58,100 nucleotides of DNA from a virus. Its lineage: Duplodnaviria > Caudoviricetes. A program made the translations under genes and the position numbers. Of the stretch, positions 42,655 to 54,830 are shown one piece after another (the stretch's first letter is position 1; each line of letters starts with the position of its first letter). Where the stretch lies: the IMG/VR virus record IMGVR_UViG_3300031920_000245, positions 1 to 58,100 of that record, one strand, 5' to 3'. The notes beneath the pieces are model-generated. The model searched no databases, was not told where the DNA came from, and saw only the letters and a program-made list of their open reading frames with translations.

Positions 42655-42779
42655 ACTCAAATTTCCTATAAATACTTGATATTTTACATTAATTTCTAAA
42701 TATATTTTATTTTTTGTAAGTATTTATAGGAAATAAATAAACACATTTGCCAGTTAGTGGTTAAGTTAATAATAACATT

Positions 42780-42815
42780 AAAATGCATTCAAAAATAATT
42801 GGATGCATTTTTTTT
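42780..42815 (+). terminator. Intrinsic terminator insulating tRNA operon 1
   Basis: AAAATGCATTCAA-aaataa-TTGGATGCATTTT plus T run. Confidence 0.7.
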
Positions 42816-42835
42816 ATGAAATAATTTGTTTTTAA

Positions 42836-42862
42836 TGTAACCTTTTATATCTTTGCAACGTA
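42836..42862 (+). promoter_or_regulatory. TGTAAC-N17-CGTA promoter of tRNA operon 1
   Basis: TGTAAC 42836-42841, CGTA 42859-42862. Confidence 0.65.
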
Positions 42863-42912
42863 TTTAGTAATAAAGAAACAATTTATGTTTAAAGATATTA
42901 GAATTTAGAACA

Positions 42913-42969
42913 ATGAAAAGAATAATTAACATACAACCGCAACCGCAACATCAACCAATATTTGGTTAG
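42913..42969 (+). CDS. Attenuator leader peptide 1, MKRIINIQPQPQHQPIFG
   Basis: Codon run CAA CCG CAA CCG CAA CAT CAA CCA; followed by antiterminator, terminator and tRNA-Pro, Pro, His, Gln. Confidence 0.85.
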   Translation: MKRIINIQPQPQHQPIFG

Positions 42970-43057
42970 TTGAACGGGAATGTTATGTGTTAAATATATA
43001 TTAACTTAAAATAAAACAGGACCTCCGTTCAATAAAATGAACGGGGGTTTTTTATTT
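42970..43057 (+). terminator. Attenuator 1: antiterminator plus intrinsic terminator
   Basis: Terminator ACCTCCGTTCA-ataaaa-TGAACGGGGGT-TTTTT at 43021-43057; TTGAACGG at 42970 is complementary to its 5' arm CCGTTCAA. Confidence 0.85.
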
Positions 43058-43083
43058 AATAACAATTAAACAATTTAGAAAAA

Positions 43084-43218
43084 ATGGGAATTCCGAGAAA
43101 CAAAGAACAAAATTTAAAAAGACTAAAAAACCGATTGAAAAAATTTGATGGCAATAACCAAAAAATGGCTGACAAAATAAAAGTTAAAATCAAAATGGTT
43201 GAAAGTCAAAAAGGTTAA
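43084..43218 (+). CDS. 44-aa basic protein
   Basis: MGIPRNKEQNLKRLKNRLKKFDGNNQKMADKIKVKIKMVESQKG, not in the ORF track. Confidence 0.55.
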   Translation: MGIPRNKEQNLKRLKNRLKKFDGNNQKMADKIKVKIKMVESQKG

Positions 43219-43226
43219 GTAAAGAT

Positions 43227-43303
43227 CGAGTAGTTGGGGAGTCAGGTCACCCCGCCACATTTGGGATGTGGAGAACTCGCAGGTTCGAATCCTGCCTACT
43301 CGA
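43227..43303 (+). tRNA. tRNA-Pro(UGG)
   Basis: Acceptor CGAGTAG/CTACTCG; anticodon arm CCACA-TTTGGGA-TGTGG. Confidence 0.92.
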
Positions 43304-43311
43304 CTAAATAT

Positions 43312-43386
43312 ATGGGTGTTCCGCAGATGGATATACGGACATGTTTTGGGGACATGTGTTCGTGGGTTCGAATCCCACTACCCATA
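43312..43386 (+). tRNA. tRNA-Pro(UGG), second copy
   Basis: ATGGGTG/TACCCAT; CATGT-TTTGGGG-ACATG; GTGGG-TTCGAAT-CCCAC. Confidence 0.85.
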
Positions 43387-43512
43387 CAATAATTAGTTAC
43401 CCTGCTTGTTCCGTGTGGGGTTATAAAAATACATTAATTAACGGAACTCATGATGGAGTCCTTGCCAAGAAAGTAGGATAAAGATGTTATAATGTTGACT
43501 AATTATATATAT

Positions 43513-43584
43513 GGTGTTTGAAGCATTAATGTGATGTGCATGACTGTGGATCATGAGAAGACGGTTCAATACCGTCCTTACACC
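43513..43584 (+). tRNA. tRNA-His(GUG)
   Basis: CATGA-CTGTGGA-TCATG; G-1:C73; two U-U mismatches in the acceptor stem. Confidence 0.78.
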
Positions 43585-43600
43585 CAAAATTTTTAAAGTT

Positions 43601-43747
43601 ATGGGAAAAATTAGAGTTGGAAATAAAGAAAATGCTATTCTAAACCGTGAATGGGGTGGACATGTGAAAAGTTGGTGTAAAAAATACACAGCTAAAACAC
43701 GTAGAAATCTTAATCAACGAATTATAAGAGAAGCAATGTTTGATTAA
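43601..43747 (+). CDS. 48-aa basic protein
   Basis: MGKIRVGNKENAILNREWGGHVKSWCKKYTAKTRRNLNQRIIREAMFD. Confidence 0.55.
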   Translation: MGKIRVGNKENAILNREWGGHVKSWCKKYTAKTRRNLNQRIIREAMFD

Positions 43748-43754
43748 ATTATAT

Positions 43755-43825
43755 TGACCTATGGTGTAATGGTAGCACAGGTGATTTTGGTTCACCCGGT
43801 CAAGGTTCGAATCCTTGTAGGTCAG
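43755..43825 (+). tRNA. tRNA-Gln(UUG)
   Basis: TGACCTA/TAGGTCA; GGTGA-TTTTGGT-TCACC. Confidence 0.92.
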
Positions 43826-43865
43826 CAATTTTTTTATTTCATATGTTTTTATTACCTTTACCCCT

Positions 43866-44249
43866 ATGAGAAAATACAATTTATTCCTCGATGATTTTAG
43901 ATCATTAGCTGATGCACATTCATATACATTTGAAATGCTTTATGCTACAAAAAAATGGGAAATAGTTCGTTCCTATGATGAATTCGTTAAATATATTGAA
44001 GAGAATGGTCTACCTGAAATGATTTCCTTCGACCACGATCTCGCTGACGAACATTATGATTACCAAAAAGAGATTAATTACGATCAAGTAGAAAAAACAG
44101 GATACCATTGTGCTAAATGGTTAATTAATTATTGTCTTGATAATAAATTAGATGTTCCGGATAAAATATTAATTCATTCAGCAAATACTGTTGGTTCTCT
44201 AAATATAAAATCATTATTTGACACTTATTGGAAAGTTTACGGTAAATAA
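43866..44249 (+). CDS. Cyclic-phosphate-processing receiver-domain protein
   Basis: LFLDDFR, ISFDHDL, TGYHCAKWL, IHSANTVG motifs. Confidence 0.8.
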   Translation: MRKYNLFLDDFRSLADAHSYTFEMLYATKKWEIVRSYDEFVKYIEENGLPEMISFDHDLADEHYDYQKEINYDQVEKTGYHCAKWLINYCLDNKLDVPDKILIHSANTVGSLNIKSLFDTYWKVYGK

Positions 44250-44260
44250 AACATAAAATT

Positions 44261-44512
44261 ATGATACCAGATTACGAAGAAGAACATAGAATAGATCAAG
44301 CTAATAAAGCATATGAATTGTTTGAAAGATTTTTAGAATCACATGACGGTAAAAGAATATTCCCTGAACATAAGGAATTACTTGATTATTTTTTATTGAA
44401 AGAATTACATATTGACGAATTAAAAGAAAAAATTCACCAATATGAAAGTTTCTTTAATACCTTAAAAGGTTTTTTACCTCGTGATTTTTCGATTCATGAT
44501 AAATTAAGTTAA
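44261..44512 (+). CDS. Hypothetical protein
   Basis: 83-aa ORF. Confidence 0.5.
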   Translation: MIPDYEEEHRIDQANKAYELFERFLESHDGKRIFPEHKELLDYFLLKELHIDELKEKIHQYESFFNTLKGFLPRDFSIHDKLS

Positions 44513-46552: not shown

Positions 46553-46578
46553 TGTAACATTTAATATTTATATACGTA
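46553..46578 (+). promoter_or_regulatory. TGTAAC-N16-CGTA promoter of tRNA operon 2
   Basis: TGTAAC 46553-46558, CGTA 46575-46578; GTATTTATA also at 46596. Confidence 0.65.
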
Positions 46579-46623
46579 TATTTGCATAGAAGATTGTATT
46601 TATAAAAAATAAAACACGATAAA

Positions 46624-46734
46624 ATGAAAAATTTAATGGACATAATGTTAATTTCTGCACTCGTTGCCTTATTATGGGCAGATAACGATGTGGATGAACT
46701 ATGTTCAGTCGGGTTTAATAAATTAAGATGTTAA
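46624..46734 (+). CDS. Attenuator leader peptide 2, MKNLMDIMLISALVALLWADNDVDELCSVGFNKLRC
   Basis: Core ALVALLWADNDVDEL matches downstream tRNA identities; contains antiterminator AGTCGGGTTT at 46707-46716. Confidence 0.8.
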   Translation: MKNLMDIMLISALVALLWADNDVDELCSVGFNKLRC

Positions 46735-46755
46735 CTAAGCTAACTTTTTAAATAG

Positions 46756-46795
46756 AAAAACCCGACTTGAGTAATTAAGTCGGGTTTTTTGTTTT
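46756..46795 (+). terminator. Attenuator 2 terminator
   Basis: AAAAACCCGACTTGA-gtaa-TTAAGTCGGGTTTTTT-GTTTT. Confidence 0.88.
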
Positions 46796-46933
46796 ATATA
46801 AGTAATTGTTCTTTGACGTATTGGGAAATTAAAATGGTGTTCAAGTTATCTGGATAATCCAGATGGGTTGAATATTAAACATAATTAAGGGTTATTATAT
46901 CGAATAATTTTCGTAAATTCGAACCCTTAATAT

Positions 46934-47010
46934 GGTCTACGGGGCTGCTAGGTGTGGCTGCCGGACTGTCACTCCGGAGATTCAGATGGGTTCGAACCCC
47001 ATGTAGACCG
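46934..47010 (+). tRNA. tRNA-Asp(GUC)
   Basis: GGTCTAC/GTAGACC; CCGGA-CTGTCAC-TCCGG; G73. Confidence 0.88.
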
Positions 47011-47052
47011 CTTTTTTACATATTGACAGTATTTATATTAAATATAAATTTT

Positions 47053-47754
47053 ATGAAAAGTAAAAGATATGAAAAAGAATTTTTTAGTCAAATAGTTAAA
47101 CATTCACATAATCTAACAGACATTGCTGAAAAATTAAATTTAAAACCACATTGTGGTAATAGAGATACAATAAAAAAATATATTAACATATATAGATTAG
47201 ATACATCACATTTTAGAGTAAGATATGAATTAAGAATAAAAAGGAAAATCCCATTATCTGAAATAATGATAAGTGGATCAACATATTCAACAACTAATTT
47301 AAAAGAAAGATTATATGATGAGGGTTTAAAAGAAAGAGAATGTGAGAAATGTGGACAAGGGGAAATATGGTATGGTGATAATATGTCTTTAATTCTTGAC
47401 CATATTAATGGGGATAGTAGTGATCATAGGTTTGAAAATCTTCGTATATTATGTCCAAATTGTAATGCAACATTACCAACACATGGTGGTAAAAATAAAA
47501 GAAATAAAAAATATTATTATTATAATGATTCTAATCAATATTGCAATTGTGGTAATAAAAAAAATAATAAAGCAGAATTGTGTAAAAAATGTAATGATAT
47601 TAATATTAGAAAAGTAAAGAGACCTACATATAATCAATTAATTAAAGAAATTAAAGAAACATCGTATTGTGCTGTAGGTAGAAAATATAATGTTAGTGAT
47701 AATACAATAAGAAAATGGATAAAGTTTTATGAAAATAATAATACACCCTCGTAG
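47053..47754 (+). CDS. HNH homing endonuclease
   Basis: CEKC...LDHINGDSSDHRFENLRILCPNCNA; C-terminal HTH; likely start ATG 47053. Confidence 0.9.
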   Translation: MKSKRYEKEFFSQIVKHSHNLTDIAEKLNLKPHCGNRDTIKKYINIYRLDTSHFRVRYELRIKRKIPLSEIMISGSTYSTTNLKERLYDEGLKERECEKCGQGEIWYGDNMSLILDHINGDSSDHRFENLRILCPNCNATLPTHGGKNKRNKKYYYYNDSNQYCNCGNKKNNKAELCKKCNDINIRKVKRPTYNQLIKEIKETSYCAVGRKYNVSDNTIRKWIKFYENNNTPS

Positions 47755-48631: not shown

Positions 48632-48677
48632 TTAAACATAAATACTATTTATTTAATACAAATAAAATATATTTGAT

Positions 48678-51587: not shown

Positions 51588-51875
51588 ATGAGAAATTATA
51601 CTAATTTATTAATAATTCCCGCAAAATTTGCGAAGAATAGTGATGATAATCAACGCATAATTAATTGTGTGATCGGTAAAACCCCTGATGGTGTGCCAAT
51701 TACACAATTAAGAAAATTTGAGAAATATTGTACAGAAGGTATTGAAAATCCGACCTATTTATTAATAGGCATCATAAGTGGTCAGGGTTTTACACGAGTA
51801 ACATTTACCGATGCCAAAGAGTTTGAAAAATTGTTCATTGAAAAATGGGGTTGTCTGGATTTGACAGCAACGTAG
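51588..51875 (+). CDS. Hypothetical protein overlapping the tmRNA 5' end
   Basis: ATG 51588; stop lies inside ssrA. Confidence 0.45.
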   Translation: MRNYTNLLIIPAKFAKNSDDNQRIINCVIGKTPDGVPITQLRKFEKYCTEGIENPTYLLIGIISGQGFTRVTFTDAKEFEKLFIEKWGCLDLTAT

Positions 51876-52215
51876 AATGGTAAGTAAGCAAGTGGTAGTT
51901 GTAGAATCTACTTTAAAAAAGTTACAAAACTATAAATGCAGAAGACTTAATGTCTATTCCAACATTTCTTAACAGAAGTGTACCAGCAGTTGCAAGTGAA
52001 GCTGAACTAGCAATGGCTGCGTAAGGAAACAGCAAAAAAACAGCGAAAAACTTGTAATCAAGTAAGGTTTGAGATACCTTTAAATAATCACTCTGGTTAA
52101 TTATTCGACTATAACGAATAGATATTTTGGATGATTAGAAAATCATATCCTAAACTTGTAGAAAACTTATTAGTCACTTGTTTGGACGTGGGTTCGACTC
52201 CCACCAACTCCACCA
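51847..52215 (+). ncRNA. ssrA: tmRNA
   Basis: 5' GGGGTTG...GGATTTGAC; 3' GACGTGGGTTCGACTCCCACCAACTCCACCA with G3:U; tag ORF 51938-52024 after ATAAAT ending LAMAA-stop. Confidence 0.93.
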
Positions 52216-54282: not shown

Positions 54283-54322
54283 TTTATAGTATAGATTTGT
54301 AAAGTTAAATTTAAAAAAGAAA

Positions 54323-54409
54323 ATGATGTCAAGAATTAACACATATTATTTCAAGAAATCTTATAAGAAGTATCTTATAGGAATCGGGAATCGTATGATT
54401 AGTTCATAA
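54323..54409 (+). CDS. Attenuator leader peptide 3, MMSRINTYYFKKSYKKYLIGIGNRMISS
   Basis: TAT TAT TTC AAG AAA TCT TAT AAG AAG TAT; antiterminator GAATCGGG at 54381-54388. Confidence 0.85.
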   Translation: MMSRINTYYFKKSYKKYLIGIGNRMISS

Positions 54410-54440
54410 AAAATAAATTAACTAAAACTAATATATGTTT

Positions 54441-54476
54441 AAAAACCCGATTCTTAATAGAGTCGGGTTTTTTGTT
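54441..54476 (+). terminator. Attenuator 3 terminator
   Basis: AAAAACCCGATTCT-taat-AGAGTCGGGTTTTTT-GTT. Confidence 0.88.
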
Positions 54477-54502
54477 GTATAAAAGTTCTTTGAATATATA
54501 AT

Positions 54503-54723: not shown

Positions 54724-54816
54724 CACATAATGGTGAAAAGGAATACACTATCCAAGACATGGGGAGAGGGATGCTGGCAACACCATTCCATACGGGTTCG
54801 AGTCCCGTTTATGTGA
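54724..54816 (+). pseudogene. tRNA-like gene with Leu-type body and broken anticodon arm
   Basis: CACATAA/TTATGTG acceptor, TGGTGAAAAGGAATACAC D arm, ACGGG-TTCGAGT-CCCGT T arm, long variable arm; no canonical anticodon loop. Confidence 0.6.
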
Positions 54817-54830
54817 CAAAAATTAATATT

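What the first reader, a model, noticed from the sequence alone, without database searches (positions are those of the whole stretch)
42913..43825. Attenuator 1: QPQPQHQP leader upstream of tRNA-Pro, Pro, His, Gln
Eight consecutive codons (CAA CCG CAA CCG CAA CAT CAA CCA) use only Gln, Pro and His, and each is readable by the UUG, UGG and GUG tRNAs that follow. TTGAACGG sits immediately after the stop codon (42970) and pairs with the terminator arm CCGTTCAA. A ribosome at the stop would mask it and one stalled upstream would not, which is classical geometry. CAAC..AACCAA-tat-TTGGTT-a-GTTG gives an alternative protector hairpin.
Basis: partly seen in the sequence, partly recalled or inferred. 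Interest (0 to 1): 0.9.

Follow-up and report, generated by a model that had tools for sequence, protein, structure and literature searches.

The report
Leader-peptide attenuator gating phage tRNA genes
A large T4-like phage places a tiny translated test gene, spelled in Gln, Pro and His codons and wired to a switchable transcription stop, in front of its own Pro, His and Gln tRNA genes, so it probably makes these tRNAs only when ribosomes read those codons slowly.

Summary
An 18-codon ORF (42913-42969) holds eight consecutive Gln/Pro/His codons. That run is unique among 726 ATG ORFs of the contig. TTGAACGG follows the stop codon directly and pairs with the 5' arm of a strong terminator (43018-43053). 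tRNA-Pro, Pro, His and Gln follow.

- 24 distinct homologous leaders from large uncultured phages all precede Pro/His/Gln-only tRNA arrays.
- They show codon periodicity.
- Terminator and antiterminator both carry compensatory changes.
- In 14 of 24 the first tRNA starts 28 nt or less after the terminator, so those tRNAs can only be reached by readthrough.

Two sister units in the window (Asp/Glu/Val/Leu/Ala/Trp; Lys/Tyr) share the architecture. So does a fourth unit in a complete 363-kb relative.

The mechanism is classical trp/his-type attenuation. The cargo, tRNA genes, is not classical. I found no published account in eight literature searches, and no Rfam family matches.

This scan has already noted the same kind of system on other phage DNA. 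This is a new, well-populated family of it.

Readthrough has not been measured, and whether the signal is tRNA shortage or amino-acid shortage is inferred.

The parts
42825..42855 (+). Putative promoter of unit 1: TTTG (42825-42828), 19 nt, TAtcTTTG (42848-42855), the Bacteroidota-type -33/-7 pattern
   Evidence: Read. A TAnnTTTG box lies within 75 nt upstream of the ATG in 23 of 24 leaders. The -7 box consensus is quoted from passages of PMC7641319. The transcription start is not mapped.
42913..42969 (+). Leader ORF, 18 codons plus TAG: MKRIINIQPQPQHQPIFG
   Evidence: ATG is invariant in 24 of 24 relatives. Third-codon-position entropy is 0.77 bits against 0.14 and 0.17 for positions 1 and 2.
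42934..42957 (+). Control codons CAA CCG CAA CCG CAA CAT CAA CCA (Gln, Pro, His only); also the 5' strand (region 1) of the protector hairpin
   Evidence: Unique among 726 ORFs. 184 of 192 residues at these eight positions in 24 leaders are P, Q or H.
42943..42977 (+). Protector (1:2) hairpin: CCGCAAC/GTTGAACGG around AACCAA-tat-TTGGTT
   Evidence: Minimum-free-energy folds. RNAalifold pairs the last Pro codon with TGGG of region 2 in 23-24 of 24 sequences.
42970..42978 (+). Region 2, antiterminator 5' strand TTGAACGGG, starting directly after the stop codon
   Evidence: It pairs with 43024-43032 when a ribosome is placed on any control codon, and is masked when the ribosome is at the stop. 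Antiterminator columns are 96.9% paired, with changes on both sides in 3 of 8 pairs.
43018..43053 (+). Intrinsic terminator: 14-pair stem (region 3 = 43018-43031, region 4 = 43038-43051), loop ATAAAA, T-run
   Evidence: -19.3 kcal/mol. 98.8% of cells paired and 6 of 10 pairs with compensatory changes in 24 sequences.
43084..43218 (+). Small basic ORF (44 aa) between the terminator and the first tRNA
   Evidence: Homologous 42-aa ORFs sit at the same place in L040, L049, L060 and L067, so 5 of the 10 leaders examined have it. No Pfam match.
43227..43387 (+). Two tRNA-Pro(UGG) genes (43227-43304, 43312-43387)
   Evidence: 53.5 and 41.7 bits.
43514..43584 (+). tRNA-His(GUG), with G-1 at 43513
   Evidence: Rfam only, 39.6 bits. 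ARAGORN missed it. Two U.U mismatches in the acceptor stem.
43755..43826 (+). tRNA-Gln(UUG)
   Evidence: 63.3 bits.
43866..44249 (+). 127-aa cREC_REC-domain gene, same strand, 40 nt after tRNA-Gln; possibly the last gene of the gated transcript
   Evidence: Pfam PF20274, E = 3e-22. It lies next to the Pro/His/Gln array in 6 of 34 loci that hold a homologue. In 5 of those 6 it is downstream of the array on the same strand. Co-transcription is inferred.
46577..46790 (+). Sister unit 2: TAtaTTTG (46577-46584); leader ORF 46624-46734 (..ALVALLWADNDVDEL..); region 2 AGTCGGGTTT 46707-46716; terminator 46755-46790. It lies ahead of tRNA Asp, Asp, Val, Glu, Glu, Val, Leu, Ala, Leu, Leu, Ala, Trp.
   Evidence: Homologous leaders are found in 4 of 5 relatives examined.
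54292..54472 (+). Sister unit 3: TAgaTTTG (54292-54299); leader ORF 54323-54409 (..TYYFKKSYKKY..); region 2 GGAATCGGG 54380-54388; terminator 54441-54472. It lies ahead of tRNA Lys, Lys, Tyr, Tyr.
   Evidence: 16 of 16 pattern hits in viral contigs are homologous leaders ahead of Lys/Tyr arrays.

Best explanation
This is a ribosome-mediated (leader-peptide) transcription attenuator that gates a phage transcript carrying tRNA-Pro, Pro, His and Gln, a small basic ORF and perhaps the cREC_REC gene.

Proposed sequence of events:
1. Transcription starts at a Bacteroidota-type promoter near 42860, and a ribosome translates the 18-codon leader.
2. If Gln, Pro and His codons are decoded quickly, the ribosome reaches the TAG at 42967. 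It then covers TTGAACGGG (42970-42978). The terminator 43018-43053 forms and transcription stops before the tRNA genes.
3. If the ribosome stalls on any of the eight control codons, it melts the protector hairpin and leaves region 2 free. Region 2 pairs with the 5' arm of the terminator before the 3' arm is made, and RNA polymerase runs on into the tRNA genes.
4. With no translation at all, the protector and terminator both form and transcription stops.

Net logic: the phage makes a block of tRNAs when the pool of charged tRNA for those codons is limiting. This is a negative feedback loop on decoding capacity.

Shown here: the sequence elements, their conservation, covariation and geometry.
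Inferred: translation of the leader, the kinetic competition, and the physiological signal.
For: 1. Codon run. It is unique in the contig: 1 of 726 ORFs reaches 8 of 8.

2. Conservation and cargo.
- 24 distinct homologous leaders were found.
- 24 of 24 are followed first by tRNA-Pro(UGG).
- All anticodons ARAGORN could read in these arrays are Pro, His or Gln.
- 184 of 192 control-position residues are P, Q or H.

3. Translation signature.
- The ATG is invariant.
- Third codon positions vary about five times more than first and second positions (0.77 against 0.14 and 0.17 bits).
- At the control codons there are 23 synonymous and 14 non-synonymous differences from the consensus. 6 of the 14 stay within P, Q or H.

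4. RNA signature.
- The terminator is 98.8% paired, with 6 of 10 pairs changed on both sides.
- The antiterminator is 96.9% paired, with 3 of 8 pairs changed on both sides. In both cases no shuffle out of 500 reached the observed number of such pairs.
- In L038 and L065 the reading frame over region 2 differs, yet GAATGGGG is kept. So that stretch is constrained as RNA, not as peptide.

5. Geometry. Constrained folds give the 9-pair region 2:3 helix for ribosomes stalled at 42940, 42949 or 42955, and none for a ribosome at the stop.

6. No room for a second promoter.
- In 14 of 24 relatives the first tRNA starts 7-28 nt after the T-run.
- In the window there is no TAnnTTTG box between 42848 and 43925.

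7. Same design elsewhere with other amino-acid sets.
- Units 2 and 3 in the window.
- Units 3 and 4 in the complete relative G001.
- The true leader-to-array assignment scores best of 6 permutations in the window and best of 24 in G001.
Against: - No expression data. No RNA run holds this DNA, so the 3' end, leader translation and readthrough are all unmeasured.
- The window's own region 2:3 helix (-11.6 kcal/mol) is much weaker than the terminator (-19.3). Taken alone it is not rare: 84 of 3136 control windows have a run as long. At equilibrium the terminator always wins, so the model depends on kinetics.
- Covariation in the antiterminator rests on two divergent sequences, the window and L006.
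- The host is unknown. The promoter assignment rests on a motif, and phage-specific promoters cannot be excluded.
- The window's tRNA-His has two acceptor-stem mismatches and may be impaired.
- Leader use of CAG does not clearly track the presence of tRNA-Gln(CUG): 10 of 11 arrays with it against 8 of 13 without it, some arrays truncated. No isoacceptor-level matching is shown.
Confidence: 0.8

Rival explanations
1. The device is the same, but the signal is amino-acid starvation, as in the trp and his operons. On this reading it is not tRNA shortage or tRNA damage. The phage would be reading the host's Gln, Pro and His supply, and tRNA induction would be a timing or stress output.
For: A stalled ribosome cannot tell missing tRNA from uncharged tRNA. 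The architecture is that of amino-acid operon attenuators.
Against: Extra tRNA does not relieve amino-acid starvation, whereas it does relieve tRNA shortage. Each leader matches the isotypes of its own array, and four units in a complete relative (G001) together cover the 20 amino acids. That fits a supply-and-demand loop on tRNAs. No amino-acid synthesis gene lies in the gated unit.
Confidence: 0.12
2. The antitermination is RNA-only or protein-mediated, for example T-box-like direct tRNA binding or an RNA-binding protein. The codon run would act as a binding or pairing sequence and would not be translated.
For: The control codons are also one strand of the protector hairpin, so part of their conservation could be structural.
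Against: There is three-base periodicity, an invariant ATG and an in-frame stop in 24 of 24. Amino-acid identity is kept through synonymous changes. No T-box or other Rfam family matches, either at gathering score or at E up to 10. The unrelated sequences of units 2-4 keep only the composition-to-array match.
Confidence: 0.04
3. It is a constitutive terminator or insulator with a chance or unrelated small ORF. The tRNAs would be expressed from another promoter.
For: Terminator-like sites are not enriched overall: 7 found against 5.7 +/- 2.7 in shuffles. The window has 173 nt between the terminator and the first tRNA.
Against: The codon run is unique. The leader is conserved in 24 distinct sequences. 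The gap is 28 nt or less in 14 of 24. Region 2 covaries with the terminator. The same design recurs at three arrays in the window.
Confidence: 0.03

Closest known systems
Multivalent leader-peptide attenuators of enterobacterial amino-acid operons (thr leader for Thr and Ile; ilvGMEDA leader for Ile, Leu, Val) and the single-amino-acid trpL and hisL leaders (recalled from textbook knowledge, no call)
   Same: A short translated leader with clustered control codons, a 1:2 protector, a 2:3 antiterminator and a 3:4 terminator. The stop codon is placed so that a finishing ribosome masks region 2. Several amino acids are sensed by one leader.
   Different: The gated genes are tRNA genes, not biosynthetic enzymes, so the loop acts on decoding capacity. 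The element is phage-borne. There is no sequence or covariance-model similarity to the Rfam leader families.
pheST leader (pheM) of E. coli, a leader-peptide attenuator ahead of an aminoacyl-tRNA synthetase operon (recalled, no call)
   Same: A leader peptide controls a gene of the translation apparatus according to charged-tRNA supply.
   Different: There the cargo is the synthetase of one amino acid. Here it is the tRNAs themselves, for three amino acids.
T-box riboswitches
   Same: Transcription antitermination that responds to the state of a specific tRNA, with a terminator/antiterminator choice.
   Different: A T-box binds uncharged tRNA directly, without translation, through one specifier codon and a conserved T-box sequence. 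Neither is found here: no Rfam match and clear coding periodicity.
Codon-matched leader attenuators ahead of phage tRNA arrays, noted earlier by this scan in other phage genomes (e1-5836933, e1-5928568, e1-6011797, e1-5947825 and others; AI notes, unpublished)
   Same: The same logic and architecture: leader composition equals the isotypes of the array behind it, and there are several units per phage.
   Different: The DNA is different. No look-alike stretch of this leader exists in the scan's index. Here the family is defined by 24 distinct members with covariation, in T4-like phages with Bacteroidota-type promoter boxes.
Phage T4 tRNA gene cluster (recalled, no call)
   Same: A T4-like myovirus (Gp23 capsid, Gp20 portal) that carries clustered tRNA genes interspersed with small ORFs and homing endonucleases.
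   Different: As far as I recall and could search, no leader-peptide attenuator is described for the T4 tRNA genes.

Membership tests
Leader-peptide (ribosome-mediated) transcription attenuators | A short translatable ORF in the 5' leader of the regulated transcript | tested here: met
   An 18-codon ORF at 42913-42969. ATG and an in-frame stop are present in 24 of 24 relatives. Third-position entropy is 0.77 bits against 0.14 and 0.17. Translation itself was not observed.
Leader-peptide (ribosome-mediated) transcription attenuators | Clustered control codons for the sensed amino acid(s) | tested here: met
   8 of 8 consecutive Gln/Pro/His codons, reached by 1 of 726 ORFs. 184 of 192 residues in relatives are P, Q or H.
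Leader-peptide (ribosome-mediated) transcription attenuators | An intrinsic terminator between the leader and the regulated genes | tested here: met
   A 14-pair stem plus T-run at 43018-43053. 98.8% paired, with 6 of 10 pairs compensatory.
Leader-peptide (ribosome-mediated) transcription attenuators | A mutually exclusive antiterminator whose 5' strand is free when the ribosome stalls and masked when it reaches the stop | tested here: met
   Constrained folds. 96.9% paired, with 3 of 8 pairs changed on both sides. This is in silico only.
Leader-peptide (ribosome-mediated) transcription attenuators | A protector (1:2) hairpin that involves the control codons | tested here: met
   Minimum-free-energy folds of the window and of all 24 leaders. 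RNAalifold gives a 4-pair helix between the last Pro codon and region 2.
Leader-peptide (ribosome-mediated) transcription attenuators | Regulated genes make, charge or import the sensed amino acid | tested here: not met
   The cargo is tRNA-Pro, Pro, His and Gln, a small ORF and perhaps a cREC_REC gene.
Leader-peptide (ribosome-mediated) transcription attenuators | Readthrough rises when the cognate charged tRNA is limiting | not testable with these tools
   This needs coupled transcription-translation or in vivo reporters.
Rfam leader families (Trp_leader, His_leader, Thr_leader, Leu_leader, Phe_leader) | A covariance-model score at or above the gathering threshold | tested here: not met
   No leader family passes on the window. 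Among the named leader-peptide families the best weak match is Phe_leader, at 16 bits against a cut-off of 55.
T-box riboswitch (RF00230) | A match to the T-box model | tested here: not met
   No match at gathering score, nor at E up to 10 in 42800-43230.
Codon-matched leader attenuators of phage tRNA arrays (kind noted earlier in this scan, unpublished) | Leader amino-acid set equals the isotypes of the tRNA array behind it, with a terminator/antiterminator between them and several such units per phage | tested here: met
   There are three units in the window and four in the relative G001. The true assignment is best of 6 and best of 24 permutations. 24 of 24 unit-1 leaders and 16 of 16 unit-3 leaders sit ahead of matching arrays.

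The most novel reading that the evidence does not exclude
The leaders together form a phage-encoded meter of decoding capacity: three in this contig, and four in a complete relative that cover all 20 amino acids. Each meter switches on replacement tRNAs for its own codon set when host tRNAs run out or are cut by tRNA-targeting defence nucleases. On this reading the system is an inducible counter-defence. Unit 1 would co-induce a cREC_REC protein, whose Pfam name points to processing of cyclic-phosphate ends. From recall, such ends are what anticodon nucleases leave.
Probability: 0.3. Interest if true: 0.9.

Novelty: new variant of a known kind. Interest (0 to 1): 0.8.

Why it matters
Why phages carry tRNA genes is still debated. 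Codon compensation, replacement of degraded host tRNAs and escape from tRNA-cleaving defences have all been proposed (abstract openings of PMC10264068, PMC11555353 and PMC12409363 in the listing).

A built-in sensor that turns each tRNA block on when its own codons are read slowly would have three consequences:
- It would show that these phages treat tRNA supply as a regulated quantity.
- It would extend leader-peptide attenuation from amino-acid metabolism to the decoding machinery itself.
- It would give a compact natural part, about 200 nt, that reports the decoding speed of chosen codons.

It also makes the debate testable, because one can ask which stress opens the switch.

Tried and rejected
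- Expression data: no RNA holder is listed for 42700-44300.
- blastn of the window region and of a typical relative's leader against GenBank phage records. The first gave only tRNA hits and one hit in the cREC_REC gene. The second gave none. No cultured carrier was found.
- Rfam at gathering and at permissive thresholds gave only weak terminator-like matches.
- Isoacceptor-level matching. CAG in the leader against tRNA-Gln(CUG) in the array: 10 of 11 against 8 of 13, with some arrays truncated. There is no clear relation.
- A locus search with the AAA_28 protein upstream of unit 3 gave one locus, which holds no tRNAs.
- The GTTCTTTGA motif after the terminators of units 2 and 3 has 2 matches in the window. 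22 of 100 shuffles have at least 2. Its number is not significant and its meaning is unknown.
- Pattern scan of cellular genomes. 2 of 120 stretches are true leaders. One has the exact contig length of the phage record G001 (362,763 bases) and the other lies on a 5.9-kb contig. Both are filed in MAG bins and are probably phage DNA.
- The scan's own notes, searched by place and by sequence, held nothing for this genome.
- Literature. Eight searches on leader peptides or attenuation with phage or tRNA genes found no paper that describes leader-peptide control of tRNA genes. PMC10264068 holds none of the words attenuat, leader, terminator or promoter. Subscription journals and supplements were not searchable.
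- Unit 2 in L006: no leader was found in the 420 nt upstream of its first tRNA-Asp.
Full report
**What is there**

The window is a whole 58.1-kb contig with 28.9% G+C. It comes from a T4-like myovirus. Pfam finds a Gp23 capsid protein, a Gp20 portal, a T4-type large terminase and a tail sheath. The nearest capsid relatives are uncultured huge phages at 31-34% identity, and no close cultured relative was found.

ARAGORN finds 22 tRNA genes and a tmRNA, all on the + strand between 43.2 and 55.2 kb. Rfam finds 21 tRNAs and the tmRNA. The two lists differ at three places:
- tRNA-His 43514-43584 is found by Rfam only.
- A tRNA-Asp at 46934 is found by ARAGORN only.
- A 94-nt "tRNA-Val(GAC)" at 54724 is found by ARAGORN only.

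**The observation**

- ATG is at 42913. Eighteen codons follow (MKRIINIQPQPQHQPIFG), then TAG at 42967-42969.
- Codons 8-15 are CAA CCG CAA CCG CAA CAT CAA CCA.
- TTGAACGG begins at 42970, directly after the stop. It is complementary to CCGTTCAA at 43025-43032, which belongs to the 5' arm of a 14-pair terminator (43018-43051, T-run to 43053).
- The protector hairpin CAAC..AACCAA-tat-TTGGTT-a-GTTG is part of the minimum-free-energy fold (-40.4 kcal/mol, z = -5.5, 0 of 200 shuffles as stable).
- Behind the terminator lie a 44-aa basic ORF, two tRNA-Pro(UGG), tRNA-His(GUG), a 48-aa ORF and tRNA-Gln(UUG).
- The His gene has an encoded G-1 and anticodon GUG, but also two U.U mismatches in the acceptor stem.

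An 8-of-8 run of Gln/Pro/His codons occurs in 1 of 726 ATG ORFs of 10 aa or more, and the next best is 6 of 8. The region 2/region 3 complementarity taken alone is not rare. 84 of 3136 control windows have a run of 8 or more, and 195 of 3136 reach the duplex energy. The case therefore rests on position and conservation.

**Relatives**

The 127-aa gene just downstream brought in 34 loci. Six of them carry a Pro/His/Gln tRNA array nearby, and all six have a homologous leader in front of it.

Two back-translated patterns scanned over viral contigs added more. From 38 distinct regex hits I kept 24 distinct leader sequences, the window included. I dropped 14:
- one alternative start of L043;
- 13 hits in G+C-rich or long frames that had no leader-type ORF.

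The consensus is MKNL[VI]NI[QV]PQPQQHPQ..EWG.YA.

Findings on these 24 sequences:
- All 24 are followed first by tRNA-Pro(UGG). Their arrays hold only Pro, His and Gln tRNAs, plus one gene in L049 that ARAGORN could not read.
- In 14 of 24 the first tRNA starts 7-28 nt after the T-run, which leaves no room for a separate promoter.
- 23 of 24 have a TAnnTTTG box within 75 nt upstream, inside a conserved TTTG..TAtaTTTGCA block. That box is described as the -7 element conserved in Flavobacterium and Bacteroides (passages of PMC7641319). A Bacteroidota host is therefore likely but inferred.

**Translated and structured**

In the alignment A1 the ATG is invariant.
- Third codon positions of the control codons carry 0.77 bits of entropy, against 0.14 and 0.17 for the first and second positions.
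- 184 of 192 residues at these positions are P, Q or H.

These are the marks of a translated frame.

The RNA pairings are also supported.
- The terminator is 98.8% paired, with changes on both sides in 6 of 10 pairs.
- The antiterminator (columns 61-68 with 132-139) is 96.9% paired, with changes on both sides in 3 of 8 pairs. Both beat 500 shuffles and all slid registers.
- The antiterminator changes come from only two sequences, the window and L006.
- In L038 the stop falls just before GAATGGGG, and in L065 the frame over it is shifted. The bases are kept in both. That stretch is therefore conserved as RNA, not as peptide.
- All 24 fold as a protector hairpin plus terminator. RNAalifold pairs the last Pro codon with region 2.

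**Geometry**

I folded the RNA up to 43037, before region 4 is made, with a 30-nt ribosome mask.
- With the mask on codon 42940, 42949 or 42955, region 2 (42970-42978) pairs with 43024-43032.
- With the ribosome at the stop, region 2 is covered and region 3 stays free for the terminator.
- With the full RNA at equilibrium the terminator wins in every case (-19.3 against -11.6 kcal/mol).

The switch must therefore be kinetic, as in classical attenuators.

**The system**

The three strongest + strand terminators in the tRNA region each sit ahead of a tRNA block. The other two carry the same design.
- Unit 2 has the leader MKNLMDIMLISALVALLWADNDVDELCSVGFNKLRC. Its region 2, AGTCGGGTTT, pairs with the terminator. 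It lies ahead of Asp, Asp, Val, Glu, Glu, Val, Leu, Ala, Leu, Leu, Ala and Trp.
- Unit 3 has the leader MMSRINTYYFKKSYKKYLIGIGNRMISS. Its region 2 is GGAATCGGG. It lies ahead of Lys, Lys, Tyr and Tyr.
- Unit 2 leaders are conserved in 4 of 5 relatives examined. L006 has none in the 420 nt searched.
- Unit 3 leaders were found in 16 of 16 pattern hits, each ahead of arrays made of Lys and Tyr genes; one array also holds a tRNA-Leu.

In the complete 362,763-bp relative G001, which has 55 tRNA matches, a fourth leader reads MKTYRKISEDSTSTSSRNGNGIFCSIFTGRNNADTGSGFKDIDL. It precedes Thr, Cys, Asn, Ile, Ser, Phe, Gly and Arg tRNAs.

The true leader-to-array assignment gives the highest composition match of 6 permutations in the window and of 24 in G001.

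One caveat applies to unit 2. TAnnTTTG boxes inside its long array, for example at 48668, could drive its distal tRNAs independently. No such box lies inside unit 1.

**Comparison with what is known**

The mechanism is that of the trp, his, thr and ilv leaders. The cargo is different. No Rfam leader family or T-box matches. Eight literature searches found no description of leader-peptide control of tRNA genes. Subscription journals and supplements could not be searched.

This scan has noted the same kind of system in other phages. None of them shares sequence with this one. I formed my reading before seeing those notes, and they agree with it.

**What remains open**

- Whether the leader is translated.
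- Where the transcript ends.
- Whether readthrough responds to Gln, Pro or His decoding.
- Whether the natural trigger is tRNA depletion or cleavage rather than amino-acid starvation.

The cREC_REC gene just downstream (PF20274) hints at an RNA-damage context. That link is an inference from the family's name.

Noticed in passing
window 43866-44249 (+): A 127-aa cREC_REC (cyclic-phosphate processing receiver domain, PF20274, E = 3e-22) gene lies 40 nt after tRNA-Gln on the same strand. A homologue lies next to the Pro/His/Gln array in 6 of 34 loci, and downstream on the same strand in 5 of those 6. It may belong to the gated transcript.
   Followed up: partly
window 43084-43218 (+); L040, L049, L060, L067: A conserved 42-44-aa lysine/arginine-rich ORF sits between the unit 1 terminator and the first tRNA in 5 of 10 leaders examined. 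It has no Pfam match and its function is unknown. A second small ORF (43601-43747) has a similar N-terminus (MG.IR..NKE).
   Followed up: partly
window 43388-43513: A 126-nt spacer between the second tRNA-Pro and tRNA-His has no ARAGORN or Rfam match, even at E up to 1. It may be a decayed tRNA or some other small RNA.
   Followed up: partly
window 46934-47754: An HNH endonuclease ORF (47053-47754; Pfam HNH plus HTH) lies between the two tRNA-Asp genes. An open frame runs into it from inside the first tRNA-Asp, which Rfam does not call at gathering score. Homing endonuclease ORFs (HNH, and probably GIY-YIG) also fill the terminator-to-tRNA gap in L064, L065, L067 and L072.
   Followed up: no
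window 54724-54817: The 94-nt tRNA-Val(GAC) called by ARAGORN is not found by Rfam. Relatives' unit 3 arrays hold only Lys and Tyr. It may be a false call or an interrupted gene.
   Followed up: no
window 51847-52215: A phage-encoded tmRNA (119 bits) with a 28-residue tag ending in ALAMAA lies between the unit 2 tRNAs and tRNA-Leu(CAA)/tRNA-Met.
   Followed up: no
window 46808-46816 and 54485-54493; several relatives: GTTCTTTGA lies between the terminator and the first tRNA in units 2 and 3, and just after the unit 1 or unit 2 terminators of several relatives. Its number in the window is not significant (22 of 100 shuffles have at least 2), but its placement is consistent. It could be a processing signal or a promoter-like signal.
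   Followed up: partly
window 42780-42811: A 13-pair hairpin flanked by A-runs and T-runs (terminator-like on both strands) lies just upstream of the unit 1 promoter box. It may insulate the unit from upstream transcription.
   Followed up: no
window 42913-42933 and 46624-46644; relatives: Unit 1 and unit 2 leaders share the N-terminus MKNL-x-[ND]-I. In the folds, the start of the ORF pairs with the stretch just after the stop (GAAAAATTTAG with CTTAAATTTTTC). This may hide the start codon after the first round of translation.
   Followed up: no
L197 12814-12886 (G001); L276: The complete relative G001 carries a suppressor-type tRNA with anticodon CTA. A contig of the same length (362,763 bases) that holds the same leader is filed in a public genome collection as a Paceibacterota MAG contig. 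It is probably a phage genome binned with a cell.
   Followed up: no
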